Below the pieces are notes generated by a model that saw only the letters and a list, made by a program, of their open reading frames with translations, had not been told where the DNA came from and made no database searches. This document shows, in pieces, positions 567-38,275 of a stretch of 45,146 bases of DNA. The stretch comes from Microcoleus vaginatus WJT46-NPBG5. Its GTDB lineage: Bacteria; Cyanobacteriota; Cyanobacteriia; Cyanobacteriales; Oscillatoriaceae. The first letter of the stretch is position 1. The number at the start of each line of letters is the position of its first letter. The stretch lies in contig JAHHHM010000015.1 in assembly GCA_019359355.1 (NCBI GenBank), positions 1-45,146 on the forward strand. Reading direction: 5' to 3'. The translations under genes were made by a program, and so were the position numbers.

Positions 567-2120
567 ATGTTAAATAATATTTGGGATTGCCTTGTGAGAG
601 AGTTTCTAGCAATATTTGGTAGAAACGAGCCATCCCCTCCACCGCCGCCTCCGCCACCGCGTCAAACTCTGAGTGATGAAGAACTTGAGGCGATGTTCAT
701 GCAGTTACTGGATGGAGTGAAGGAAGGGTGGAGTCGCGGATCAGTGAAGGGGTTTCTGATAACTAAACAGGTGACAGATGCGGAGTGGATCGCGTGGTTG
801 CGCCGGCTTGAAGAATCGTTGCAAAGTGTGCCGGCGCAGCATGAGGAATTGGCGCGGCGGTTGGTGCAGTTTGGGGAAATTCGCGGGGAGAAATTGGGGG
901 AAGTGGCGGCAGAAATAGGCCGGCTCTTACTGGCACAAGTACCGCAGCGTCAAGAAACAGAAAAGCCAGAGGAAGAGATTCAAGACGCTGATGCGTGGTT
1001 TAATCGAGGCAATGAACAATATAGGAAAGAAGATTTTCTGGGTTCGCTTATTTCCTACAACTGCGCTATTGAAATTAAATCCGACTTTTACTTAGCGTGG
1101 AATAGCCAGGGAAATTCGCTATCTGAATTAGGCCGGCATGAAGAGGCGATCGCTTCCTACAACCGTGCCCTTGAAATAAAACCTAACTTTTACCAAGCTT
1201 TATATAACTGCGGACTATCACTCGCAGAATTAGGCCGGCATAAAGAAGCGCTTACTTTTTATAACCGCGTTGTTGAAATTAAACCCAACTTTCACGAAGC
1301 TTGGAATAGCCAAGGGAATGCGCTAGCTAATTTAGGCCGACATGAAGAAGCGCTCATTTCCTTTGAACGCGCTCTTGAAATTAAACCCAGTTTTTACCAA
1401 GCTTGGTATAACCACGGAAATTTGCTAAATTATTTAGGCCGGCATGAAGAGGCGCTCACTTCCTACAATCATGCCGTTGAAAATAACTCATACTATCTAA
1501 AAGCTTGGTTTCATCGAGGGCTAGCGCTAGCCCAATTAGGCCGGCATGAAGAGGCGTTTACCTCCTACAGCCGTGCTTTTAGCATTAAACCCAATAATCA
1601 CAAATCTTGGTATAAACTGGCGTTATCGCTAGCAGATTTAGGACACCATGAAGAGGCGCTTACTTTTTATAACCGCGCCGTTGAAATTAAACCTGACTTT
1701 TACGAAGCTTGGAATAGCCAAGGGAATTCGCTATCTGAATTAGGCCGGCATGAAGAAGCACTGACTTCCTACAACCGCGCCATTGAAGTTAAACCTGATT
1801 TTTACGAAGCTTGGTATAACCGGGGAATATCGCTAGCTCAATTAAACCGGCATGAAGAGGCAACTGATTCCTACAACCGCGCCATTGAAATCAAATCCGA
1901 CGATCACGAAGCTTGGACGAACCGGGGAAATTCGTTAACACAAATAAGCCGGCATGAAGAGGCAATCGCTTCCTACAACCGTGCCTTGGAAATTAAACCC
2001 GACGATCATGAAGTTTGCTATAACAAGGGGCTATGTCTAGATTATTTAGGCAAGTATGAAGAAGCGCTCACTGCCTACAACCGCGCTCTAGAAATTAAAC
2101 CCGATTTGTACAACGCTTAG
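567..2120 (+). CDS. TPR-repeat protein with a poly-proline N-terminal segment (PPPPPPPP) and about 12 tandem 34-aa TPR units. Each unit has the signature A/EWxNxGxxLxxLGRHEEAxxSYNRAxEIKPD.
   Basis: 517-aa ORF. Repeated W-LG-Y-A-F-A-P TPR spacing is visible in the translation. Start ATG at 567. Confidence 0.8.
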   Translation: MLNNIWDCLVREFLAIFGRNEPSPPPPPPPPRQTLSDEELEAMFMQLLDGVKEGWSRGSVKGFLITKQVTDAEWIAWLRRLEESLQSVPAQHEELARRLVQFGEIRGEKLGEVAAEIGRLLLAQVPQRQETEKPEEEIQDADAWFNRGNEQYRKEDFLGSLISYNCAIEIKSDFYLAWNSQGNSLSELGRHEEAIASYNRALEIKPNFYQALYNCGLSLAELGRHKEALTFYNRVVEIKPNFHEAWNSQGNALANLGRHEEALISFERALEIKPSFYQAWYNHGNLLNYLGRHEEALTSYNHAVENNSYYLKAWFHRGLALAQLGRHEEAFTSYSRAFSIKPNNHKSWYKLALSLADLGHHEEALTFYNRAVEIKPDFYEAWNSQGNSLSELGRHEEALTSYNRAIEVKPDFYEAWYNRGISLAQLNRHEEATDSYNRAIEIKSDDHEAWTNRGNSLTQISRHEEAIASYNRALEIKPDDHEVCYNKGLCLDYLGKYEEALTAYNRALEIKPDLYNA

Positions 2121-2355
2121 TCTAACCGGCACAATTCGCAAACTCAACAGTATGCCTCATCCTCCCACAACCTATAACCTCAGACAGATACCCAGCACAC
2201 CGGCAAGGGAGAGAATCTAAAATTTAGCGGTTTCGGTGCAGTCGAGTCTGATAAGTTAATAGATTGATCGCAAATACAAATTTTCTGGCATCCCTGACAG
2301 CTTAAACGCCGCAGCCGGCCAGGTATTCACAAGCAGCGTGGGTGGGAGAAGAGTT

Positions 2356-17701: not shown

Positions 17702-20140
17702 CTATGGCTTCAGAGGCACAAAGTCATAACCGGCACTACTGCCGGCAACTGGTTGAACTTGAACTAAAATTCCAATTCCAGGGATACGCTTACGATCACC
17801 GGAAGGCAAAAACTGCACTTTTCCAGTTGCACCTTCTGCTGCAAAACCGGCACCTGAAAGCACTTTTTGCAATCCGTGGCGGGTGCTACTTTGCTTCAAG
17901 CCGGCGACAATTGCTTGAGTCGTATCATAAGCCATTGCAGAGCGCCAATTCACAGGTGCCCCCCACAATGTCTTTGCTTTTTCAAGAAAGGGATTTTTTT
18001 GAGCGCTTCCAGGATGCCAAACCACAGCTAACACCATGCCATTAACATCAACTTGACCTAATTTAAGAGTATCAAAACTGTACATAGTAGAACTGCCAAA
18101 TAACGTGAGTTGCCCCTTATTGGCTTTGGCTAAATCAATTGCTTGATTGATTCTTTCCACTGATGGAGTCAGGAGCAAAGCATCAGCTCCATCTGCAATT
18201 GCGCTTGAGATCAAAATATTGGGATTGAAATTCGGGTTAGAAAAATCGCAGAGGATTGGGCTAACTTGCCCTCCTTCCTCCAGCACAGTATTTCGGAACT
18301 CTATTTTGATGGATTCACTATAAGGCGATTTTAGATCTGAACAGATAATAAATTTATTTTTGTGAGCTGTCTGGATGGCATAGTGTGAGAGGTTTTTCGC
18401 ATCCCGCCGGCTAGAAGTAACAGTCCGAAATATGTAGCTGCTAGTATAGGCAGTTTCCAAAGCACCACTGGTGGGAGAAATCATCACTAACCCGCCCTCC
18501 TGGTAAATTGGAGCGGCAGCGATAGAAACTTCACTGGCGTTATGACCAACAACTGCTAAAATCTGCTGATTATTGACGAATTCAGTGGCAATCTTTCGGG
18601 CGATTTCTGGCTTGTTATCATCATTGGCAATTGCAACTTGCAACAGCGCCCCGTTGATGCCAGTGCCGGCATTCACTTCATCCTGAACCTGAGCGACACC
18701 TCGCAGAATTTCTTTAGCGATATTAAGGTTGCCACCAATCGGAACGCTAACGGCAATTCTAATGGGATTTTTTGTGCCGGCAGCTTTGGCATTGTTGAGA
18801 TAAATCAGTGCCTCTGGATCGTTCGGATTAACTTGCAGAGAGGATTGCAATTTCTCCTGAGCCATAGCAAAGTCGCTGGTTGCAAACGCTTTGACTCCAG
18901 CCAACTTTTGAGGAGTGGTTCCATGCGTAATGAGAATTCTCTCTCCTAAACTGAATCGACTTAATTGCGGCAGAGATTTTAATGTTAATGAGGTGATTGC
19001 GACAACCACAATGCCCGCAGTAGCTAGCCCTAAAAATCGACCAAATTTTAACAATAAATTGTGGCTTTTAGGCCATTTCAGCGTTTGTTCAACTGGATTT
19101 TGGCAAATCACAGGCAACCAGGTGGCGCAAGGAAAATCTCCTTCCATTCCTTGCAGCTTTTCACGAGCTTTTCGTACTGCTAAATAAAAGCACTCGCCGG
19201 CTGCAAAAGTTTCTAAGAAATACTTCAAAAATGCTTCAGCTACGGGATCGGGTACGGGTTCCCGCATGACAATTAGCTGAGGGATATGAAATTGTGCTAA
19301 AGTTTGCGCTAATCCCAAGCCATCACAAGAGTTGAAAATTGCTAGTTTTAAGCTATGTTTAGTTGCGGCTTTCAGGGCATATTTTAATTCGTCAATGGTG
19401 AGACTTTCGGTTGGATTTATGTGAATTTTTCCGGCTTCATCTCCTGGCTCACTACAACTGTGGCCGGCAAAAAAGAGGATATCCCATCCCTGCTCATCCC
19501 AAAGCTGTTTATCTAGTTCTCTGCGAGTTGGCTCAACCAGCAAAGCTGTTTTTGCCTGGGGTAAGTTTTCTAGCAATTTTTGGTCCGCTTGAACGTCAAT
19601 TCCATCACTGCAACCCAAGATCGCTAGAATTCTCACTCGACCTTTAAGCGGCTTTGATTGTTGCTTTACCCAATCGTAGGAACTTAAAGCAATTTCAGTT
19701 TTGGAGTTATGTTCAAATAAATCCCATAGATGCCAGGGAAGTCGTCGCAGCCGATAATCTTCTGTTTGAATAATGATGCGAACTTCTTCAGAAGAGGTTA
19801 ATTGCTTGAGCAAACTTTCACGAATTCGCAGAAATGACTCGGCCCTCAGCCATGTGTTTAGGTTATAAACTAACTGTTGGGATAATCTGTGGCAGTTCTC
19901 CTTCAATTCGAGGCTAGAAACATTGGTGATTTGTCCGGGTTTCGCTTTGATTCGCACAGGGTTTCCCAGCCGGCGATAGGTTAACTGCCAAGATTCATGC
20001 TGTGCTGCTAACTCAGGTGCCGGCGGCAACTCACCTCGGACGCCCATTGATGCGGCTAACCCTTCTTCTCCAATTTCCAGCTTGACGCGAAAACCCCGAT
20101 CAAAGTCACCATCTAGCTTTAGGACAACTAATTTTCCCAT
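17702..20140 (-). CDS. Multidomain protein of 812 aa. From N to C it has an uncharacterised N-terminal domain of about 150 aa, a CHAT (caspase-HetF-like) protease domain, one TM helix, and a periplasmic type-I solute-binding domain (LivK/Peripla_BP_6-like).
   Basis: CHAT His/Cys dyad context: ILFFAGHS... and LAIFNSCDGLGLAQ. Hydrophobic helix FGRFLGLATAGIVVVAITSL. The C-terminal 400 aa has the PBP pattern (RIAVSVPIGGNLNIAKE...GINGALLQVAIANDDNKPE...ILAVVGHNASEVSIAAAPIYQEGGLVMISPTSG). Confidence 0.8.
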   Translation of the reverse strand: MGKLVVLKLDGDFDRGFRVKLEIGEEGLAASMGVRGELPPAPELAAQHESWQLTYRRLGNPVRIKAKPGQITNVSSLELKENCHRLSQQLVYNLNTWLRAESFLRIRESLLKQLTSSEEVRIIIQTEDYRLRRLPWHLWDLFEHNSKTEIALSSYDWVKQQSKPLKGRVRILAILGCSDGIDVQADQKLLENLPQAKTALLVEPTRRELDKQLWDEQGWDILFFAGHSCSEPGDEAGKIHINPTESLTIDELKYALKAATKHSLKLAIFNSCDGLGLAQTLAQFHIPQLIVMREPVPDPVAEAFLKYFLETFAAGECFYLAVRKAREKLQGMEGDFPCATWLPVICQNPVEQTLKWPKSHNLLLKFGRFLGLATAGIVVVAITSLTLKSLPQLSRFSLGERILITHGTTPQKLAGVKAFATSDFAMAQEKLQSSLQVNPNDPEALIYLNNAKAAGTKNPIRIAVSVPIGGNLNIAKEILRGVAQVQDEVNAGTGINGALLQVAIANDDNKPEIARKIATEFVNNQQILAVVGHNASEVSIAAAPIYQEGGLVMISPTSGALETAYTSSYIFRTVTSSRRDAKNLSHYAIQTAHKNKFIICSDLKSPYSESIKIEFRNTVLEEGGQVSPILCDFSNPNFNPNILISSAIADGADALLLTPSVERINQAIDLAKANKGQLTLFGSSTMYSFDTLKLGQVDVNGMVLAVVWHPGSAQKNPFLEKAKTLWGAPVNWRSAMAYDTTQAIVAGLKQSSTRHGLQKVLSGAGFAAEGATGKVQFLPSGDRKRIPGIGILVQVQPVAGSSAGYDFVPLKP

Positions 20141-20170
20141 TGTTGCTAAAAGTGTGAGTGCTAATTTAAG

Positions 20171-21130
20171 TCAAATAGCAAAACTTTGTATAATATTTTC
20201 CTCACCAAAAGCAACTTTAACGCTAAAAGTTTCTCCTGGCAAGCCACTAAACTGTAATTGAATATAATTATCTGCATTTCTTGCTTGGGCTTCTAAAACT
20301 GTAGTTCCTTCATGATCGAGGACAAGCAGTTGCAGTTGCGCCGGCAGGTAACTATTTTCACCTGTGGGATGGACTTGTACGAGAATGTCTGTTTCTTGTT
20401 TGGATGCCGGCATTAAAGCAACCACCAAGGCTACAGGATTTCCTAATAATTGAATTCCTAAGTCGATGAGTTTACCTCGCTTAATCTCGGCTGCTTGATT
20501 TACAGTTTCCCTGATTGGATCGATACTTCTAAAGCTAAAAGCTAAACTCGCTTTCTCTGAACCTAGAAGTGCTTCTACAGTCTGCCAGCCGGTTTCAAAA
20601 ATGTTCTCAAACCACTGGCTCAAATTCACCGTTGTCTCTCTAGCATTTTTTAGCCGGCAGATATGATCAATTAAGTTATCAATCGGTTTAAAATCGGCAA
20701 TTTGCAGATGCTCTGGTGGCAGGAGTGGATCTACACTGGGGGCAAATCCTAGAAGTTCTACTTCTTCTAGATTCTCGTTAAATTGCACCCCTATATAACC
20801 GATACGATTTTCCGTCACTTCTGGGGGTAAATAACAAGCTGTTTCCCCAGGTAAAATTGGACGACATTCCAAATAACCAATCTCTGGTATGGCTAGATCG
20901 GCAATATTAAATACAGCCTGCATTCCCCTATGCCAACTATCACTTGTACTAAGATCCGTTTCTATTTTCAGCCATTTCAGATAGCTGTGAACCGCATAGA
21001 CAGCGAGGGTATTTAAATAGACTCGTTTTCCTTTTTGAGCAGTAGCTTGTTGTGTGGCAAACTGACACGCGATTGCGTGAGCGTCTCTTCCCAGCGGAAC
21101 GGTTAATTTTGGTCTTTTTGTGTTGTTCAT
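20171..21130 (-). CDS. DUF1822-like cyanobacterial protein of 319 aa, co-transcribed with the sigma-like gene upstream and the CHAT gene downstream.
   Basis: Clean ATG ORF. Its ATG overlaps the upstream gene's stop (ATGA at 21127-21130). The family call is from memory of recurrent sigma-like/DUF1822 pairing in cyanobacteria. Confidence 0.5.
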   Translation of the reverse strand: MNNTKRPKLTVPLGRDAHAIACQFATQQATAQKGKRVYLNTLAVYAVHSYLKWLKIETDLSTSDSWHRGMQAVFNIADLAIPEIGYLECRPILPGETACYLPPEVTENRIGYIGVQFNENLEEVELLGFAPSVDPLLPPEHLQIADFKPIDNLIDHICRLKNARETTVNLSQWFENIFETGWQTVEALLGSEKASLAFSFRSIDPIRETVNQAAEIKRGKLIDLGIQLLGNPVALVVALMPASKQETDILVQVHPTGENSYLPAQLQLLVLDHEGTTVLEAQARNADNYIQLQFSGLPGETFSVKVAFGEENIIQSFAI

Positions 21131-21828
21131 GGCTCTAAACTAGGCTGATACCCCTGATTTCTGGCAATTTCTTGTAAAAGCGGTAAGCATTTTCTCTTCC
21201 AGTGAGAAACAAGCGCTTGGTAGTTGATTTTTAACTCTCTGGCAATTTCAGATAATTTGTCTGGCGGTTCGTTTAAATAAAGCCGTTTGCTAAGAAGCCG
21301 GCAGTTACATTCAAAGTTGGCTTTCGGATGACATTTCTCTAGTTTTCCTTCTGGATCTTGCTGAATGTATTTTTCTATTTCTAACCCGATGCGTTGTTTT
21401 TCCTCTCTTTGAAGTTGTTCAATATATCCCTCAATTCCGCTGAGAGAGGGAGTACCAAAACCTGTTTCTGATAATTTCTCTAAAGGGTTAAAGTCAGCTT
21501 CATTATTCTCGCTTATTTCATTCAAACTACGCGAAAATCGTTCATCAGGTATATATAAATCTTGAATTCGCCAGTAAAGGTATCCATTAATCCACTTTAC
21601 TAAGCTAATCTGCACCGAAGGCGGACGCGGTTTAAAGGTATGAATATTTTGGCTTACCCACTCCCAGGTTCGATTCAAGGCTTCTAAATAGTCTGGGTGG
21701 GAAGATTTTGACAATCCTGGTAGCTGTTGGATGTGAGCAATCAGCCGATTGAGAGCTTTTTGTTTCTCCGGACTTGGCTCCGGGTATTTACAAACTTCTG
21801 CAATGAGTTTTTTTAGTTGTTCATCCAT
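21127..21828 (-). CDS. ECF/sigma-70-family-like protein of 233 aa, with a region-2-like and a region-4-like HTH segment.
   Basis: Region-2-like aromatic block ALNRTWEWVSQNIHTFKPRP...SLVKWINGYLYWRIQDLY. C-terminal region-4-like segment LSKRLYLNEPPDKLSEIARELKINYQALVSHWKRKCLPLL. Confidence 0.55.
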   Translation of the reverse strand: MDEQLKKLIAEVCKYPEPSPEKQKALNRLIAHIQQLPGLSKSSHPDYLEALNRTWEWVSQNIHTFKPRPPSVQISLVKWINGYLYWRIQDLYIPDERFSRSLNEISENNEADFNPLEKLSETGFGTPSLSGIEGYIEQLQREEKQRIGLEIEKYIQQDPEGKLEKCHPKANFECNCRLLSKRLYLNEPPDKLSEIARELKINYQALVSHWKRKCLPLLQEIARNQGYQPSLEP

Positions 21829-22106
21829 TGTGCTTAATTTCGTTGTCTAATGCCTCCTGTTCCTTTCAAGTTAACATAAAATCACCCTAATCGCTCATGA
21901 AAGATGCGCTCTTTTGAGATGCAAACTTTCTGTAATTAACTTTAGGAACGATTAGGGGGAAGGGGGTTCAGTTTTATTCAACTATTTGATTTATTTCATG
22001 AAATGATTCTTTTGTTGTTTGCTTTTGTTCTTCTTTGTTGCCGGCTACCCTACAATCTCAGATTATCTTTCATCCGCTTATAGCCTCCCTTACTAAAATT
22101 GCTGTA

Positions 22107-22604
22107 CTAATAACTACCGCCGTCGTAACTACTGCTACCACAGTCACTACTACTATAGCTGCTGCTGTCGGAACTGCTGCTGTCATAACTACTGCTATAG
22201 CTGCTGCTGTCATAACTGCTGCTTTCACAGTTTTCATAGCTGCCGGCATCATAGCTACTGCTGTCATGACTATTGCTGTCACAGTCATAGCTGCCAGCCT
22301 CATAGCTATTGCTGTTATTATTGCTTTCACAGTTTTCATAGCTGTCGGCATCATAAGTTCTGCCATAGCTGCTGATGTCAAAGGCACTACTGTCATAGCT
22401 GACATCATCGCAATAGCTGCCGGCATCAAAATCCGTGTTATGGGAGACGCGCTTGTACTTAGAGCCTTTTTTGAAAGGGTTAGATCCTGTAAAGTCTTTC
22501 CGCTTTTTGAGTTGTTTCCGGCTTTTTTTGCTAAGAAATCGGGCGATTGACCAAACAATTAATGCAGTCAGGATACTAATCAATACTAACGCCATAGAAT
22601 CCAT
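22107..22604 (-). CDS. Membrane-anchored protein with an N-terminal TM helix, a basic cluster, and then a Ser/Tyr/Asp/Cys-rich low-complexity tail with repeats of about 13 aa (SYDAGSYENCESS).
   Basis: The ATG start is followed by MALVLISILTALIVWSIARFL and then KKSRKQLKKRK, a positive-inside signal-anchor pattern. The tail repeats are visible at both DNA and protein level. Antisense and alternate-frame ORFs over the same DNA lack good starts. Confidence 0.45.
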   Translation of the reverse strand: MDSMALVLISILTALIVWSIARFLSKKSRKQLKKRKDFTGSNPFKKGSKYKRVSHNTDFDAGSYCDDVSYDSSAFDISSYGRTYDADSYENCESNNNSNSYEAGSYDCDSNSHDSSSYDAGSYENCESSSYDSSSYSSSYDSSSSDSSSYSSSDCGSSSYDGGSY

Positions 22605-35402: not shown

Positions 35403-38147
35403 TTAAATAGTCCTCGCGGGAACGAGTGCCACCCGAAAACCGATGTTGTAGTGCCTGTTATCCGGCCCGTACGAGTCACGAGTCGCACTGCGGCAGTAGC
35501 TGGGGAAGTAGTTCCAAGAACCTCCACGCTGCAACCGGCGATTACTATCTCCGCCACTTTCCCAAGCACTGCCATCAGAAGTAGCACCGTTGTAGTTTTC
35601 ATGCCAGATATCTTGACACCACTCGCAAACATTGCCGTGCATATCGTACAGCCCAAAGGCATTGGGCGGGAAACTCCCGACATCAGTTGTCTGTTTTCGA
35701 TATTGACCCTTTGGCTCAGAAGCGTAGGTATAATTCCCATAATAGTTGGCTAAATCTGGGGTGATTGTCTCGCCAAAGTGAAAGGGTGTAGTGGTGCCGG
35801 CGCGACAGGCATATTCCCACTCTGCCTCACTGGGTAAGCGGTAGTTGCGCCCTGTTATTTGCGAGAGTTTCTGGCAAAATTTAACGGCATCATTCCAAGA
35901 TACATTTTCCACCGGCCTGTTATTTTCTTTAAATTCAGCGGGGTTATTCCCCATAAATTCAGCGGGGTTCTTCCCCATCAGCGTTTGCCACAGGGCATTG
36001 TTCCAAGATAGATTTTCCACCGGCCTGTTATTTCCTTTAAATTCAGCGGGGTTATTCCCCATCACCGCTTGCCACTGTGCCTGGGTGATGGGATATTTGC
36101 CCAGGAAAAATGGCTGTACTGTTACCCGATGCTGGGGACTTTCACCGCTATCTCGTTCTTTTTCCGTGTCTGGGGAACCCATGAGAAATGTGCCGCCCTT
36201 AATTGACACCATTTCCAAACTGACATTGTTGCCGAGTTTTTCTGCAAAAACGTCCGCTTGTCCTTGCTGTCGGCTAACAATTTCACCTCTAGCATCGACG
36301 GTAACAGTTGTGAATTGAAAAGAGGAAGTTGGAAGAACCGGCGCTGCGACTACTGTACTCGGTTGAGATAGCACGGAAGGAGTGGGAAGAACCGGCGCTG
36401 AGATCGCTGCGGGAACGAGTGCCACCCGAAAACCGATGTAGACGTCCCTGCGGCCCGGCACGTCGAAGTTACGACTCGCACTGCGGCAGCTCCTGGAGTT
36501 GAAGTACCAACAACCTCCACGCAGCATCCGGCGATTGCTATCTCCTCCACTTTCCCAAGCACTGCTATTAGAAGGCGCACCGTTGTAATTCTCATGGTAG
36601 ACATCTTGACACCACTCGTAAACATTGCCATGCATATCGTACAGTCCGAAGGCGTTGGGGGGGAAACTCCCGACATCGGTTGTTTGTTGTCGCCAAACAC
36701 CTTTTGATGCTGAGGCATAGGTGTAGTTGCCATCATAGTTAACTAAATCAGGCGTGATTGTCTCGCCAAAGTAAAACGGGGTGGTGGTGCCGGCGCGACA
36801 GGCATATTCCCACTCTGGCTCGCTGGGTAAGCGGTAGCAGCGTCCCATTTTTAGTGAGAGTTTCTGACAAAATGCAACGGCATCATCCCAAGATACCTTT
36901 TCCACCGGCCTGTTATTTCCTTTAAAATTAGCCGGGTTATTGCCCATCACGGCTTGCCACTGTGCTTGAGTAATGGGATATTTGCATAGGAAAAACGGCT
37001 GTACCTTTACCCAATGCTGCGGGCTTTCATGGCTATATCGCTTTTCTTCCATGTCTGGGGAACCCATGAGAAATGTGCCGCCCTTAATTGCCACCATTTC
37101 CAAACTGACATTGTTGCCGAGTTTTTCTGTAAAAACGTCTGCTTGTCCTTGCTGACTGCTAACAATTTTTCCTCTGATATCAACGGTAACAGTTGTGAAT
37201 TGAAAGGGATAAGTTGGAAGAACCGGCGCTGCGATTACTGTAGTCTGTTGAGATGGCACGGAAGGAGTGGGAAGAACCGGCGCTGCGATCACTGTACTTG
37301 TTTGAGATGGAGCTATTGGCAACGTAGATGCTGGCAGGGAATTCAGTGCTTGCAAAGCTTCTGTCGCATTCGCATAGCGCCCAGTGAAGTGATCTCGCAC
37401 CATTTTGCTTAAAATCTCTGCTAACCCATCGCTCACAGAAGCGTGATTTTTCCAAATCACTTCACCGTCATTATCTTCTTCGAGTAAATCAGGCTCGATG
37501 CCAGTCAAAGCAAAAATTACTGTCCTCCCCAGTGCATAAATGTCACTGCTTGGTTTTGGCTTGCCCATTGCCTGTTCGCTGGGCATAAAACCAAGCGTTC
37601 CAATAGAAACCGTGCAGCTAGTTTTTCCTGATAAAATTGTCTTCTGGATGCCAATCTCCTTAACTGCCCCAAAATCAATGAGCATCAACTTGCCATCTTT
37701 TCGTCGCATGATATTATGGGGCTTAATATCTCGATGGATGATATTGTTCTGGTGAACATAGGCCAGAATTTCTAAAACATCCTGCAACAATTTAATCGCA
37801 TAAGTTTCACTTAACTTTTTGCCCGGACTCAATTCTTTGCTTAAGTCATGCCCTTCGATAAATTCCTGAATGAGATAAAATTCTTGATTTTCTTCAAAAT
37901 AAGCAAACAACTTGGGAATGCGATCATGGTTTTGCGCCAGTTTATATAAAATTTCTGCTTCTTTTTGAAATAAACGCTGGATATCAGGTTCGATAGTTTG
38001 GGGGTGAAGCCGCTTTACAACACATTTAGGCTTCGGGGTGGCGGGAATATCTAAATCATTTGCCAAATAGGTTTCCCCAAACCCGCCGCTTCCCAGCAGT
38101 TTGACGATTTCGTAGCGATTCCGTAGTATGGTGCCGGCAACGAGCAT
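35403..38147 (-). CDS. Ser/Thr protein kinase fused to two tandem FGE-sulfatase (formylglycine-generating-enzyme / SUMF1-like) domains.
   Basis: Kinase motifs GSGGFGETY, VKRL, HRDIKPHNIM and DFG are present. There are two copies of the FGE pattern (MV.IKGGTFLMGSP...RVTVQPFFLGKYPITQAQWQAVMG...WEYACRAGTTTPF..G...NV.EW). A GGAG RBS precedes the ATG at 38147, and an alternative ATG lies at 38198. Confidence 0.85.
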   Translation of the reverse strand: MLVAGTILRNRYEIVKLLGSGGFGETYLANDLDIPATPKPKCVVKRLHPQTIEPDIQRLFQKEAEILYKLAQNHDRIPKLFAYFEENQEFYLIQEFIEGHDLSKELSPGKKLSETYAIKLLQDVLEILAYVHQNNIIHRDIKPHNIMRRKDGKLMLIDFGAVKEIGIQKTILSGKTSCTVSIGTLGFMPSEQAMGKPKPSSDIYALGRTVIFALTGIEPDLLEEDNDGEVIWKNHASVSDGLAEILSKMVRDHFTGRYANATEALQALNSLPASTLPIAPSQTSTVIAAPVLPTPSVPSQQTTVIAAPVLPTYPFQFTTVTVDIRGKIVSSQQGQADVFTEKLGNNVSLEMVAIKGGTFLMGSPDMEEKRYSHESPQHWVKVQPFFLCKYPITQAQWQAVMGNNPANFKGNNRPVEKVSWDDAVAFCQKLSLKMGRCYRLPSEPEWEYACRAGTTTPFYFGETITPDLVNYDGNYTYASASKGVWRQQTTDVGSFPPNAFGLYDMHGNVYEWCQDVYHENYNGAPSNSSAWESGGDSNRRMLRGGCWYFNSRSCRSASRNFDVPGRRDVYIGFRVALVPAAISAPVLPTPSVLSQPSTVVAAPVLPTSSFQFTTVTVDARGEIVSRQQGQADVFAEKLGNNVSLEMVSIKGGTFLMGSPDTEKERDSGESPQHRVTVQPFFLGKYPITQAQWQAVMGNNPAEFKGNNRPVENLSWNNALWQTLMGKNPAEFMGNNPAEFKENNRPVENVSWNDAVKFCQKLSQITGRNYRLPSEAEWEYACRAGTTTPFHFGETITPDLANYYGNYTYASEPKGQYRKQTTDVGSFPPNAFGLYDMHGNVCEWCQDIWHENYNGATSDGSAWESGGDSNRRLQRGGSWNYFPSYCRSATRDSYGPDNRHYNIGFRVALVPARTI

Positions 38148-38275
38148 AGTCTGGACTCCGGGCAGTGGCAATTTAATTGATTTTCGCATAATTGCCATTG
38201 CTCCAGCACCGTACTCGTATCAGCTATCTTGCTACTCTTAACAAATCTTATTAAAAAATAAGACCCTGTTTAAAA

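What the first reader, a model, noticed from the sequence alone, without database searches (positions are those of the whole stretch)
17702..21828. Candidate protease-gated sigma switch: sigma-70/ECF-like protein, DUF1822-like protein and a membrane CHAT protease with a periplasmic ligand-binding domain, in one operon
Three co-directional minus-strand genes are tightly packed. The sigma-like gene's stop overlaps the DUF1822-like start by 4 bp (ATGA), and a 30-bp gap separates that gene from the CHAT gene. The first encodes region-2-like and region-4-like sigma segments, the second a cyanobacteria-type protein of unknown function, and the third a caspase-like CHAT protease tethered to the membrane and a periplasmic LivK-type binding domain. 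Established knowledge supports the analogy. In type III-E CRISPR (Craspase), the TPR-CHAT protease Csx29 cleaves Csx30, which together with Csx31 sequesters the ECF sigma factor RpoE. In classical anti-sigma systems, regulated proteolysis frees the sigma factor. By inference, periplasmic ligand binding could activate the cytoplasmic CHAT protease, which would cleave the DUF1822-like protein and release the sigma-like factor. That would be a CRISPR-independent, ligand-gated version of the Csx29/Csx30/RpoE logic, and I am not aware of it having been characterised.
Basis: partly seen in the sequence, partly recalled or inferred. Interest (0 to 1): 0.85.

Follow-up and report, generated by a model that had tools for sequence, protein, structure and literature searches.

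The report
Sensor protease, DUF1822, sigma-like gene cassette
This is a real three-gene cassette, common in cyanobacteria, that pairs a membrane sensor carrying a caspase-like protease with a DUF1822 protein and a very divergent sigma-like factor; it was catalogued by computer in 2021 but never tested, so it is a good experimental lead, not a new kind of system.

Summary
Three co-directional minus-strand genes sit at 17702-21828, with an ATGA stop/start overlap and a 30-nt spacer.

- **Domain calls.** The 319-aa protein is DUF1822 (Pfam E 2e-77). The 812-aa protein is a conserved N-terminal module plus CHAT, one transmembrane helix, and Peripla_BP_6. The His227/Cys272 dyad is invariant in 76 homologues.
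- **Synteny.** Of 100 DUF1822 genes, 96 are followed by this CHAT module and 41 are directly preceded by the sigma-like gene. The sensor domain varies: Peripla_BP_6, PBP_like_2, CHASE2, nSTAND1-WD40 or TPR.
- **Prior description.** Kaur et al. (eLife 2021) described this cassette in one paragraph as EACC2-caspase plus ECF sigma plus DUF1822. I found no experiments.
- **New here.** The DUF1822 model is not TPR and not a known anti-sigma fold. It has a restriction-endonuclease-like N domain, a variable linker and an Ig-like C domain.

Verdict: new member of a known, uncharacterised kind; moderate interest.

The parts
21127..21828 (-). Gene for the 233-aa divergent sigma-70-family-like (ECF-like) protein
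21556..21828 (-). Sigma-2-like helical domain (aa 1-91)
21157..21423 (-). Sigma-4-like helix-turn-helix domain (aa 136-224); aa 94-135 form a disordered linker
21127..21130 (-). ATGA stop/start overlap between the sigma-like gene and DUF1822 (translational coupling)
   Evidence: Sequence. The sigma-like and DUF1822 ORFs also overlap in L083/L084, L085, L086, L087 and L088; the overlap is 4 nt in L085-L088.
20171..21130 (-). Gene for the 319-aa DUF1822 protein
   Evidence: Pfam PF08852, E 2.4e-77. 1168 homologous clusters. AF2 model pLDDT 87.6.
20543..21130 (-). DUF1822 N domain (aa 1-196), alpha/beta with a restriction-endonuclease (PD-(D/E)xK)-like fold; conserved D78 ... E88-C89-R90
20486..20542 (-). 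DUF1822 inter-domain linker (aa 197-215), low confidence and hypervariable in length; candidate protease site after R201
   Evidence: pLDDT below 50 at aa 201-212. R201 is invariant in the close family and is followed by a variable-length segment. An insert of up to about 80 aa sits here in L081, L083 and L085, and R201 is not conserved there. The cleavage site is inference only.
20174..20485 (-). DUF1822 C domain (aa 216-319), Ig-like beta sandwich
20141..20170 (-). 30-nt spacer between DUF1822 and the CHAT gene
17702..20140 (-). Gene for the 812-aa membrane sensor-protease
   Evidence: ORF. Pfam CHAT plus Peripla_BP_6/ANF_receptor. More than 100 clusters share the CHAT plus periplasmic-binding-protein architecture.
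19646..20140 (-). Constant N-terminal domain (aa 1 to about 165), presumed EACC2 of Kaur et al. 2021
   Evidence: No Pfam model hits it. Residues 1-356 are 51-59% identical in proteins with quite different C-termini. Identity with EACC2 is inferred from the published description.
19139..19561 (-). CHAT caspase-like protease domain (Pfam match aa 194-334); catalytic His227 (19460-19462) and Cys272 (19325-19327)
   Evidence: Pfam 48.4 bits against a cut-off of 24. There is a weak HetF hit in NCBIfam. LFFAGHS and NSCDGLGLA are invariant blocks in 76 sequences. The 45-residue His-Cys spacing equals that of DdvA H862/C907.
18971..19057 (-). Single predicted transmembrane helix (aa about 362-390)
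   Evidence: This is the only Kyte-Doolittle peak of 1.6 or more, and there is no N-terminal signal sequence.
17801..18766 (-). Periplasmic class-I solute-binding domain (Peripla_BP_6 / ANF_receptor, aa 459-780), LivK/amino-acid type; ligand unknown
   Evidence: Pfam E 1.7e-30. NCBIfam gives a partial hit to PRK15404, the branched-chain amino-acid binding protein.

Best explanation
The three genes form one signalling cassette of the type that Kaur et al. (2021) catalogued as EACC2-caspase plus ECF sigma plus DUF1822.

**Components**
- The 812-aa protein is a single-pass membrane sensor. A periplasmic LivK-type solute-binding domain reads a small molecule, probably an amino acid or amide. The cytoplasmic side carries a constant N-terminal domain and an intact CHAT cysteine protease.
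- DUF1822 is the protease's constant partner. It is a two-domain protein with a flexible linker.
- The 233-aa protein is a very divergent two-domain sigma-70-family-like factor. It is made in fixed ratio with DUF1822 through the ATGA overlap.

**Most likely mechanism**
1. Ligand binding outside the cell switches on the CHAT protease inside.
2. The protease cuts DUF1822, plausibly in or near the variable linker.
3. DUF1822 in its intact form holds the sigma-like factor through its N domain, so cleavage frees or changes that factor.
4. A transcriptional response follows.

**Shown versus inferred**
- Shown here: the gene structure, the domains, the intact dyad, the topology logic, conserved three-gene synteny with swappable sensors, and a sigma-like fold.
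- Inferred: ligand gating, DUF1822 as the substrate and sigma-binding partner, RNA polymerase binding by the sigma-like protein, and the regulon.

**Confidence by step**
- That this is a functionally linked sensor-protease/DUF1822/transcription-factor module: about 0.85.
- That DUF1822 is the cleaved inhibitor of the sigma-like factor: about 0.4.
For: **Anatomy.** ORFs, the ATGA overlap and the 30-nt gap are confirmed. DUF1822, CHAT and Peripla_BP_6 are all above Pfam cut-offs. There is one transmembrane helix and no signal peptide. H227 and C272 are invariant in 76 homologues.

**Sigma-like identity.** The AF2 model has two helical domains and a disordered linker. [quoted passage not shown] Family member L085 (204 aa) scores above the Sigma70_r2 gathering cut-off.

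**Synteny.**
- Of 100 DUF1822 ORFs in 88 loci plus the window, 96 have this CHAT module downstream on the same strand, 41 have the sigma-like gene directly upstream, and 38 have both.
- The same triad appears in Anabaena cylindrica, Nostocaceae, Leptothermofonsia, Nostoc sp. C117 and a Tolypothrix plasmid.
- The sensor in these is Peripla_BP_6, double Peripla_BP_6, PBP_like_2 or TPR. It is CHASE2 or nSTAND1-WD40 in others.

**Co-divergence.** The sigma-like protein tracks DUF1822, mainly its N domain. CHAT also tracks DUF1822. Sigma-like and CHAT do not track each other once DUF1822 is accounted for: partial r is 0.73, 0.83 and -0.29.

**Fusions.** Predicted proteins join sigma-like to DUF1822 and sigma-like to CHAT.

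**Published precedents for protease, inhibitor, ECF sigma logic.**
- Csx29 cleaves the two-domain Csx30, whose N domain binds CASP-sigma (PMC10028731).
- CalpL/CalpT/CalpS form a tripartite protease, anti-sigma, ECF-like sigma system.
- DdvA/DdvS couple a CHAT-bearing anti-sigma to an ECF sigma.
- Kaur et al. proposed a stimulus, caspase, sigma model for exactly this neighbourhood.
Against: - The DUF1822 model looks nothing like known anti-sigma domains. Its N domain resembles PD-(D/E)xK nucleases with a conserved D...E-C-R motif. It could therefore be an effector or a DNA-binding protein and not an inhibitor.
- About half of the DUF1822-CHAT pairs sampled, mostly the Nostoc CHASE2 type, have no sigma-like gene within 6 kb. 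The DUF1822-CHAT pair can therefore work without an adjacent sigma.
- The co-divergence pattern is confounded by gene order, because DUF1822 lies physically in the middle, and by non-independent pairs.
- R201 is not conserved outside the close family.
- No conserved promoter motif was found upstream of the sigma-like genes.
- No complex prediction could be run.
Confidence: 0.55

Rival explanations
1. Autoproteolysis model, which is the original proposal of Kaur et al. The stimulus makes the CHAT domain cut its own polypeptide, for example between the protease and the membrane anchor. The released EACC2-CHAT fragment then acts on or with DUF1822 and the sigma-like factor. DUF1822 is an adaptor, not the primary substrate.
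For: - Proposed for this neighbourhood in PMC8195603.
- DdvA is likewise thought to self-cleave.
- The constant N-terminal module (aa 1-356) is far more conserved than the rest of the protein, as expected for a releasable signalling unit.
Against: - No conserved cleavage motif was identified between the CHAT domain and the transmembrane helix.
- Nothing here separates this model from trans-cleavage of DUF1822, and the two could operate together.
Confidence: 0.2
2. Conflict or defence-system model. DUF1822 is a protease-activated PD-(D/E)xK nuclease, or another DNA-targeting effector, held in check by its C-terminal sandwich domain. The sigma-like protein only tunes expression.
For: - Conserved D78 ... 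E88-x-R90 in the hairpin where the PD...ExK motif sits.
- Many DUF1822-CHAT pairs lack a nearby sigma gene.
- Copies occur on plasmids next to phage-like genes.
- Kaur et al. place these systems among counter-invader systems.
Against: - The lysine of the motif is replaced by Arg, and by Leu or His in two divergent members.
- No acidic residue is conserved on the first helix.
- Foldseek does not recover nuclease hits.
- PADLOC has no hit for any of the three proteins.
- The window is ordinary chromosome with no defence island, cas genes or CRISPR array.
- Sensors of the LivK, phosphate-binding and CHASE2 types suggest environmental small-molecule sensing, not phage sensing.
Confidence: 0.15
3. 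The 233-aa protein is not a sigma factor. It is a helix-turn-helix DNA-binding regulator that merely shares helical-bundle and HTH geometry with sigma-2 and sigma-4, and it acts as a repressor or activator, or together with the nuclease-fold DUF1822.
For: - No sigma HMM hit for this protein.
- Family members weakly hit many generic HTH families, including HTH_28, HTH_7 and TetR_N.
- Some database names call them 'helix-turn-helix domain-containing'.
Against: - One member passes the Sigma70_r2 cut-off, and five members weakly hit Sigma70_r4_2.
- The two-domain layout with a disordered linker is the ECF layout.
Confidence: 0.1

Closest known systems
EACC2-caspase systems with ECF sigma and DUF1822 (Kaur, Iyer, Burroughs and Aravind, eLife 2021, PMC8195603); computational description only
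   Same: - A constant N-terminal alpha+beta domain plus a caspase/CHAT domain.
- A highly variable C-terminal sensor, extracellular with transmembrane helices or intracellular.
- Neighbouring genes for an ECF-like sigma factor and DUF1822.
- A proposed path from stimulus to peptidase activation to sigma-driven transcription.
- All of these features are seen here.
   Different: - The paper gives one paragraph, names no periplasmic-binding-protein sensor explicitly, and calls DUF1822 a 'TPR protein'.
- The AF2 model here shows a nuclease-like alpha/beta domain plus an Ig-like sandwich.
- No EACC2 model exists in the libraries searched, so identity of aa 1-165 with EACC2 is inferred.
Type III-E CRISPR Craspase: Cas7-11/Csx29 (TPR-CHAT), Csx30, Csx31, CASP-sigma (PMC10028731)
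   Same: - A CHAT protease, a two-domain substrate with a flexible linker whose N domain binds an ECF-like sigma, and a transcriptional output.
- DUF1822 is also two-domain with a linker, and the sigma-like protein co-diverges mainly with its N domain.
   Different: - Activation there is by crRNA-guided target RNA binding. Here there is no Cas7-11, CRISPR array or Csx31 in the window.
- The protease here is membrane-anchored with a periplasmic solute-binding domain and has no TPR.
- DUF1822 shows no detected similarity to Csx30.
- The sigma here is far more divergent; CASP-sigma scored HHpred E 3e-31 to ECF sigmas.
CalpL / CalpT / CalpS (type III CRISPR SAVED-Lon protease, anti-sigma, ECF-like sigma)
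   Same: The same tripartite logic: a ligand-activated protease, a cleavable sigma inhibitor and an ECF-like sigma.
   Different: - The protease is Lon-type, not CHAT.
- The ligand is intracellular cA4 from Cas10, not a periplasmic solute.
- No homology to any of its components was detected.
DdvA / DdvS of Myxococcus xanthus (PMC11506125)
   Same: - A CRISPR-independent, membrane-embedded CHAT-domain protein coupled to an ECF sigma.
- A conserved His-Cys dyad with the same 45-residue spacing.
- Proteolysis proposed to release the sigma.
   Different: - Topology is inverted. DdvA has a cytoplasmic zinc anti-sigma domain and a periplasmic TPR-CHAT.
- Here CHAT is cytoplasmic, the sensor is periplasmic, and any sigma-binding function would sit on a separate protein, DUF1822.
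HetF / PatU3 of Anabaena PCC 7120 (PMC9457339)
   Same: A cyanobacterial CHAT protease with a demonstrated specific protein substrate. There is a weak NCBIfam HetF hit over the CHAT core.
   Different: HetF governs cell division and heterocyst development. It has no DUF1822 or sigma partner, and the score is far below the equivalog cut-off (20 against 1200 bits).
Classical regulated proteolysis of anti-sigma factors (RseA/DegS/RseP with sigma-E; RsiW with SigW); from established knowledge and as summarised
   Same: An extracytoplasmic signal, then proteolysis, then release of an ECF sigma.
   Different: There the anti-sigma itself spans the membrane and is cut by site-1 and site-2 proteases. 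Here the protease is the membrane sensor, and the putative inhibitor is soluble with an unrelated fold.

Membership tests
EACC2-caspase / ECF sigma / DUF1822 system (Kaur et al. 2021) | [quoted passage not shown] | tested here: met
   Pfam CHAT at 48.4 bits. Residues 1-356 are 51-59% identical across proteins with different C-termini. That aa 1-165 is the published EACC2 is inferred from the description, because no model is available.
EACC2-caspase / ECF sigma / DUF1822 system (Kaur et al. 2021) | Highly variable C-terminal sensor region | tested here: met
   Peripla_BP_6 here. Homologous cassettes carry CHASE2, nSTAND1-WD40, PBP_like_2, TPR or double Peripla_BP_6.
EACC2-caspase / ECF sigma / DUF1822 system (Kaur et al. 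2021) | Adjacent DUF1822 gene and adjacent ECF-like sigma gene | tested here: met
   DUF1822 at E 2.4e-77. 96 of 100 DUF1822 genes have the CHAT module downstream, and 41 of 100 have the sigma-like gene directly upstream.
Sigma-70 family / ECF sigma factor | Sequence match to Sigma70_r2 and Sigma70_r4 models | tested here: not met
   No Pfam or NCBIfam hit for the window protein. Profiles A1 and A3 find no solved sigma factor. hhalign against RpoE is not significant. A family member does pass Sigma70_r2 (27.5 bits against 24), and five of 42 weakly hit r4_2.
Sigma-70 family / ECF sigma factor | Two-domain sigma-2 / sigma-4 fold joined by a flexible linker | tested here: met
Sigma-70 family / ECF sigma factor | Binds RNA polymerase core and directs promoter-specific initiation | not testable with these tools
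   Needs biochemistry. No conserved upstream motif was found.
CHAT / clan CD caspase-like cysteine protease | CHAT domain with a conserved His-Cys catalytic dyad | tested here: met
   Pfam match above cut-off. H227 (LFFAGHS) and C272 (NSCDGLGLA) are invariant in 76 sequences.
CHAT / clan CD caspase-like cysteine protease | Proteolytic activity on a defined substrate | not testable with these tools
   Requires an in vitro or in vivo cleavage assay.
Anti-sigma factor (ASD / zinc-ASD helical bundle classes) | Helical anti-sigma domain fold in DUF1822 | tested here: not met
Anti-sigma factor (functional definition) | Binds and inhibits its cognate sigma | not testable with these tools
   Only indirect support: translational coupling, co-divergence and a predicted sigma-like plus DUF1822 fusion, P0427.
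PD-(D/E)xK restriction-endonuclease-like superfamily (DUF1822 N domain) | Core alpha-beta-beta-beta-alpha-beta fold | tested here: inconclusive
PD-(D/E)xK restriction-endonuclease-like superfamily (DUF1822 N domain) | Catalytic D ... (D/E)-x-K motif | tested here: inconclusive
   D78 ... E88-C89-R90 is conserved in a beta hairpin. The Lys position is Arg, or Leu/His in two members. Residue-level superposition was not available.
Type III-E CRISPR Craspase | Association with Cas7-11, a CRISPR array, and TPR-CHAT Csx29 architecture | tested here: not met
   No CRISPR-like array in the window. Neighbouring genes are housekeeping or signalling genes. No TPR hit in the 812-aa protein. No PADLOC hit.
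DdvA-type transmembrane anti-sigma with periplasmic TPR-CHAT | N-terminal cytoplasmic zinc anti-sigma domain, transmembrane helix, periplasmic TPR-CHAT | tested here: not met
   Domain order is reversed here: CHAT is N-terminal with no signal peptide, and the solute-binding domain follows the single transmembrane helix, unlike the architecture.
Class I periplasmic solute-binding protein (Peripla_BP_6 / LivK-like) | Full-length match to the family model | tested here: met
   Peripla_BP_6 model positions 1-325 of 343, E 1.7e-30. ANF_receptor E 2.5e-9. Ligand specificity was not determined.

The most novel reading that the evidence does not exclude
DUF1822 is a new structural class of sigma-factor inhibitor. 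A degenerate restriction-endonuclease-fold domain sequesters a highly divergent ECF-like sigma. An Ig-like domain and a variable linker serve as the handle and cut site for a membrane-anchored CHAT protease, which is switched on by a periplasmic small molecule. That would make this a widespread cyanobacterial one-step transmembrane signalling route, from ligand to caspase-like cleavage to sigma release. The route would have interchangeable sensors and would be evolutionarily independent of both CRISPR Craspase and RseA-type proteolytic cascades.
Probability: 0.3. Interest if true: 0.7.

Novelty: new member of a known kind. Interest (0 to 1): 0.45.

Why it matters
If the model is right, cyanobacteria carry a large, modular and untested family of signalling systems. 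In these, a caspase-like protease reads an extracellular or intracellular cue and controls transcription through a dedicated sigma-like factor.

- **Scale.** The sigma-like family has 769 representatives at 50% identity, DUF1822 has more than 1100 clusters, and more than 100 clusters show the CHAT plus periplasmic-binding-protein architecture.
- **Relation to known biology.** This would extend the protease, inhibitor, ECF sigma logic recently found in type III CRISPR systems (Craspase, CalpLTS) to ordinary environmental sensing.
- **What it would assign.** It would give a function to DUF1822 and to an unannotated sigma-like family.
- **Possible use.** It could yield ligand-gated protease switches for synthetic biology.
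- **Tractability.** The triad also occurs in culturable strains such as Anabaena cylindrica PCC 7122 and Nostoc sp. C117. The record name and the 6.41-Mb contig of P0248 suggest an orthologous cassette in other Nostocaceae, so the hypothesis can be tested directly.

Tried and rejected
1. **Sequence route to a sigma assignment.** Pfam, NCBIfam, phmmer, and two family profiles (A1, A3) against all PDB chains found nothing, and hhalign against E. coli RpoE gave nothing significant. Only fold comparison and one divergent family member gave support.
2. **PADLOC defence models.** No meaningful hit for any of the three proteins.
3. **DUF1822 sequence search.** The DUF1822 profile against PDB and a permissive Pfam scan of 44 members found only DUF1822 itself.
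5. **Autoregulated promoter search.** Upstream regions of six sigma-like genes were aligned and showed no conserved motif. The sigma-70 promoter and terminator scan was at background level.
6. **CHAT N-terminal 400 aa against PDB sequences.** No relative found.
7. **Chance adjacency.** Considered and rejected on synteny.
8. **Defence island or CRISPR association.** Considered and rejected. The neighbours are an aconitase-family protein, an outer-membrane efflux protein, a histidine kinase, DJ-1/PfpI, an RTX/SBBP protein, PAS-GGDEF-EAL, aspartate kinase and similar, and there is no CRISPR-like repeat array.
9. **Co-divergence (mirror-tree) analysis.** It gave a pattern consistent with DUF1822 as the bridging partner. 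I treat it as weak, because DUF1822 is also the physically central gene and the sequence pairs are not independent.

Full report
**1. Observation**

The window is 100% identical at protein level to a Microcoleus vaginatus WJT46-NPBG5 metagenome-assembled genome. It carries three minus-strand ORFs at exactly the stated coordinates:
- 21127..21828, 233 aa
- 20171..21130, 319 aa
- 17702..20140, 812 aa

The first stop codon overlaps the second start codon (ATGA at 21127-21130). Thirty nucleotides (20141-20170) separate the second and third genes. The genes on either side are on the opposite strand or are unrelated, so this is a self-contained three-gene unit.

**2. Domain calls**

- The 319-aa protein is a full-length DUF1822 (E 2.4e-77).
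- The 812-aa protein has a CHAT domain at residues 194-334 (48.4 bits against a cut-off of 24). It also has a full-length Peripla_BP_6/ANF_receptor domain at residues 459-780, with a partial match to the branched-chain amino-acid binding-protein subfamily.
- It has one hydrophobic segment, at about residues 362-390, and no signal peptide. CHAT should therefore be cytoplasmic and the binding domain periplasmic.
- In an alignment of 76 non-identical homologues, the blocks LFFAGH(227)S and NSC(272)DGLGLA are invariant. The dyad is intact. Its 45-residue spacing equals that of DdvA H862/C907.

**3. The sigma-like gene**

- The 233-aa protein hits no Pfam or NCBIfam sigma model.
- Neither the protein nor two family profiles find any solved sigma factor by sequence.
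- hhalign against E. coli RpoE is not significant, although it does place the C-terminal helix-turn-helix on region 4.2.

The fold evidence is clearer.
- An AF2 model built on 42 homologues (pLDDT 74) has a four-helix N domain (1-91), a disordered linker (94-135) and a helical HTH C domain (136-224).
- A more distant member of the same family, L085:973-1587, matches the family HMM at E 6e-26. It scores 27.5 bits on Pfam Sigma70_r2 against a cut-off of 24.
- Five of 42 close members weakly hit Sigma70_r4_2.

I conclude that it is a very divergent sigma-70-family or ECF-like protein. RNA polymerase binding is untested. The family has 769 representatives at 50% identity.

**4. Synteny**

- A scan of one genome per species found 248 DUF1822 relatives. 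The best 80 loci are all cyanobacterial.
- Adding eight loci retrieved through CHAT or sigma-like homologues gives 100 DUF1822 ORFs. Of these, 96 are followed on the same strand by a gene whose first ~356 residues are homologous to the window protein's. 41 are directly preceded by a sigma-like gene, and 38 have both.
- The sensor region after the constant module differs between loci:
  - CHASE2 in 73 of 75 of the closest DUF1822 loci
  - nSTAND1 plus WD40 in L002 and L088
  - Peripla_BP_6 in Anabaena cylindrica and Leptothermofonsia
  - a double Peripla_BP_6 of 1246 aa in Nostocaceae
  - PBP_like_2 in Nostoc sp. C117
  - TPR on a Tolypothrix plasmid

- The CHAT plus periplasmic-binding-protein architecture alone fills more than 100 protein clusters.
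- The sigma-like and DUF1822 ORFs overlap in L083/L084, L085, L086, L087 and L088, by 4 nt in the last four. This includes L085, where a kinase gene and a 170-aa ORF separate DUF1822 from the CHAT gene, and L088, where the CHAT gene is divergent.
- About half of the DUF1822-CHAT pairs, mostly the Nostoc CHASE2 type, have no sigma-like gene within 6 kb.

**5. DUF1822 structure**

- The AF2 model (44 homologues, pLDDT 87.6) has three parts: an alpha/beta N domain (1-196), a low-confidence linker (201-212) and an all-beta C domain (216-318).
- D78, E88 and C89 are invariant and R90 is nearly so. They lie on consecutive strands of a hairpin, where the PD...ExK motif normally sits. In divergent members D, E and C persist, but R90 can be Leu or His.
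- The inter-domain linker varies from almost nothing to about 80 residues. R201 at its start is invariant only in the close family.
- This does not match the 'TPR protein' label given to DUF1822 in Kaur et al. It also matches no known anti-sigma domain.

**6. Indirect tests of who interacts with whom**

- Pairwise identity matrices were compared across 38 complete triads. Partial correlations are 0.73 for sigma-like with DUF1822, 0.83 for DUF1822 with CHAT, and -0.29 for sigma-like with CHAT.
- At domain level, the sigma-like protein tracks the DUF1822 N domain (0.74) more than the C domain (0.35). CHAT tracks both (0.57 and 0.65).
- This fits DUF1822 as the bridging partner, but it is weak evidence. 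DUF1822 is also the physically central gene, and the pairs are not independent.
- Among the family representatives there are predicted fusions:
  - sigma-like plus DUF1822 (P0427)
  - sigma-like plus CHAT (P0377, P0379)
  - the sigma-like N half plus CHAT plus PBP_like_2 (P0437)

  These may be true fusions or gene-calling artefacts.

**7. Literature**

- A full-text search for DUF1822 finds only two papers.
- Kaur, Iyer, Burroughs and Aravind (eLife 2021, PMC8195603) describe proteins with a constant EACC2 domain and a caspase domain. These have highly variable C-termini, including extracellular sensors with transmembrane helices and small-molecule-binding domains.
[quoted passage not shown] They propose stimulus-induced autopeptidase activation and a final sigma-mediated transcriptional step.
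- EACC2 appears in no later relevant paper, and I found no experimental work.
- Characterised analogues are:
  - Craspase, where Csx29 cleaves Csx30 and so releases CASP-sigma
  - CalpL/CalpT/CalpS
  - DdvA/DdvS, a transmembrane anti-sigma with a periplasmic TPR-CHAT
  - HetF/PatU3, a cyanobacterial CHAT protease with a defined substrate

**8. Interpretation**

The best-supported reading is a ligand-gated sensor-protease cassette.
1. The periplasmic solute-binding domain controls the cytoplasmic CHAT protease.
2. The protease acts on its constant partner DUF1822.
3. DUF1822 in turn controls the co-translated sigma-like factor.

I give it about 0.4.

The rivals are:
- self-cleavage of the sensor, the original published proposal
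- DUF1822 as a protease-activated nuclease-fold effector
- the 233-aa protein being a plain HTH regulator

Nothing in the window suggests a defence island or a CRISPR association.

**9. Verdict**

The finding is real and well conserved. It belongs to a system that has already been catalogued computationally and whose logic has experimentally proven analogues.

What is new here is limited to four points:
- the fold of DUF1822
- fold-level confirmation of the sigma-like protein
- the quantified synteny
- the periplasmic-binding-protein sensor variants

Novelty: new member of a known but uncharacterised kind. Interest: 0.45.

Noticed in passing
window 22107-22604 (-), overlapping ORFs 22035-22558 on both strands: A 165-aa ORF with an N-terminal hydrophobic helix followed by a Ser/Tyr/Asp-rich low-complexity tail (SSYD-type repeats). 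It is built on imperfect 15, 42 and 51-nt tandem repeats, has no Pfam hit, and lies directly upstream of the cassette.
   Followed up: partly
L077:9541-10350 and equivalent positions in other Nostoc loci: A DUF928 gene sits immediately downstream of the CHAT-CHASE2 gene in Nostoc-type DUF1822-CHAT cassettes that lack an adjacent sigma-like gene. It may be a fourth component of that variant.
   Followed up: no
P0427, P0437, P0377, P0379 (representatives of the sigma-like family): Predicted fusion proteins: sigma-like plus DUF1822 (692 aa), sigma-like N half plus CHAT plus PBP_like_2 (696 aa), sigma-like plus CHAT (891 aa), and CHAT plus sigma-like (422 aa). They could be Rosetta-stone fusions or gene-calling artefacts.
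   Followed up: partly
L082:2998-3664 versus L081:2999-3664 (Anabaena cylindrica records CP003659 and CP186034): The sigma-like gene is called as two pieces (67 and 172 aa) in the PCC 7122 record but as one intact 221-aa gene in the other assembly. This may be a frameshift, a sequencing error or a pseudogene.
   Followed up: no
L087 (Tolypothrix tenuis PCC 7101 plasmid AP018250), 5627-12349: A plasmid-borne copy of the cassette lies next to HNH and Sipho_Gp157 phage-like genes. Its DUF1822 is only 252 aa and lacks the C-terminal beta sandwich, and its CHAT protein is a 1615-aa TPR form.
   Followed up: partly
DUF1822 family as a whole (model of window 20171-21130): The published description of DUF1822 as a 'TPR protein' (PMC8195603) disagrees with the high-confidence AF2 model, which shows a restriction-endonuclease-like N domain and an Ig-like C domain with a conserved D...E-C-R motif.
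   Followed up: yes
L085:2696-4845 (Leptothermofonsia): In this genome a Ser/Thr protein kinase gene and a 170-aa ORF with no Pfam hit are inserted between DUF1822 and the CHAT-periplasmic-binding-protein gene. A group-2 sigma-70 gene lies just downstream on the other strand.
   Followed up: no
window 35403-38198 (-): A 931-aa protein combines an N-terminal Ser/Thr kinase domain with a C-terminal FGE-sulfatase domain. It is unrelated to the cassette.
   Followed up: no
window 1045-2129 (+): A long 102-nt tandem repeat (10.6 copies) is simply the coding sequence of consecutive TPR repeats in a 517-aa TPR protein.
   Followed up: yes
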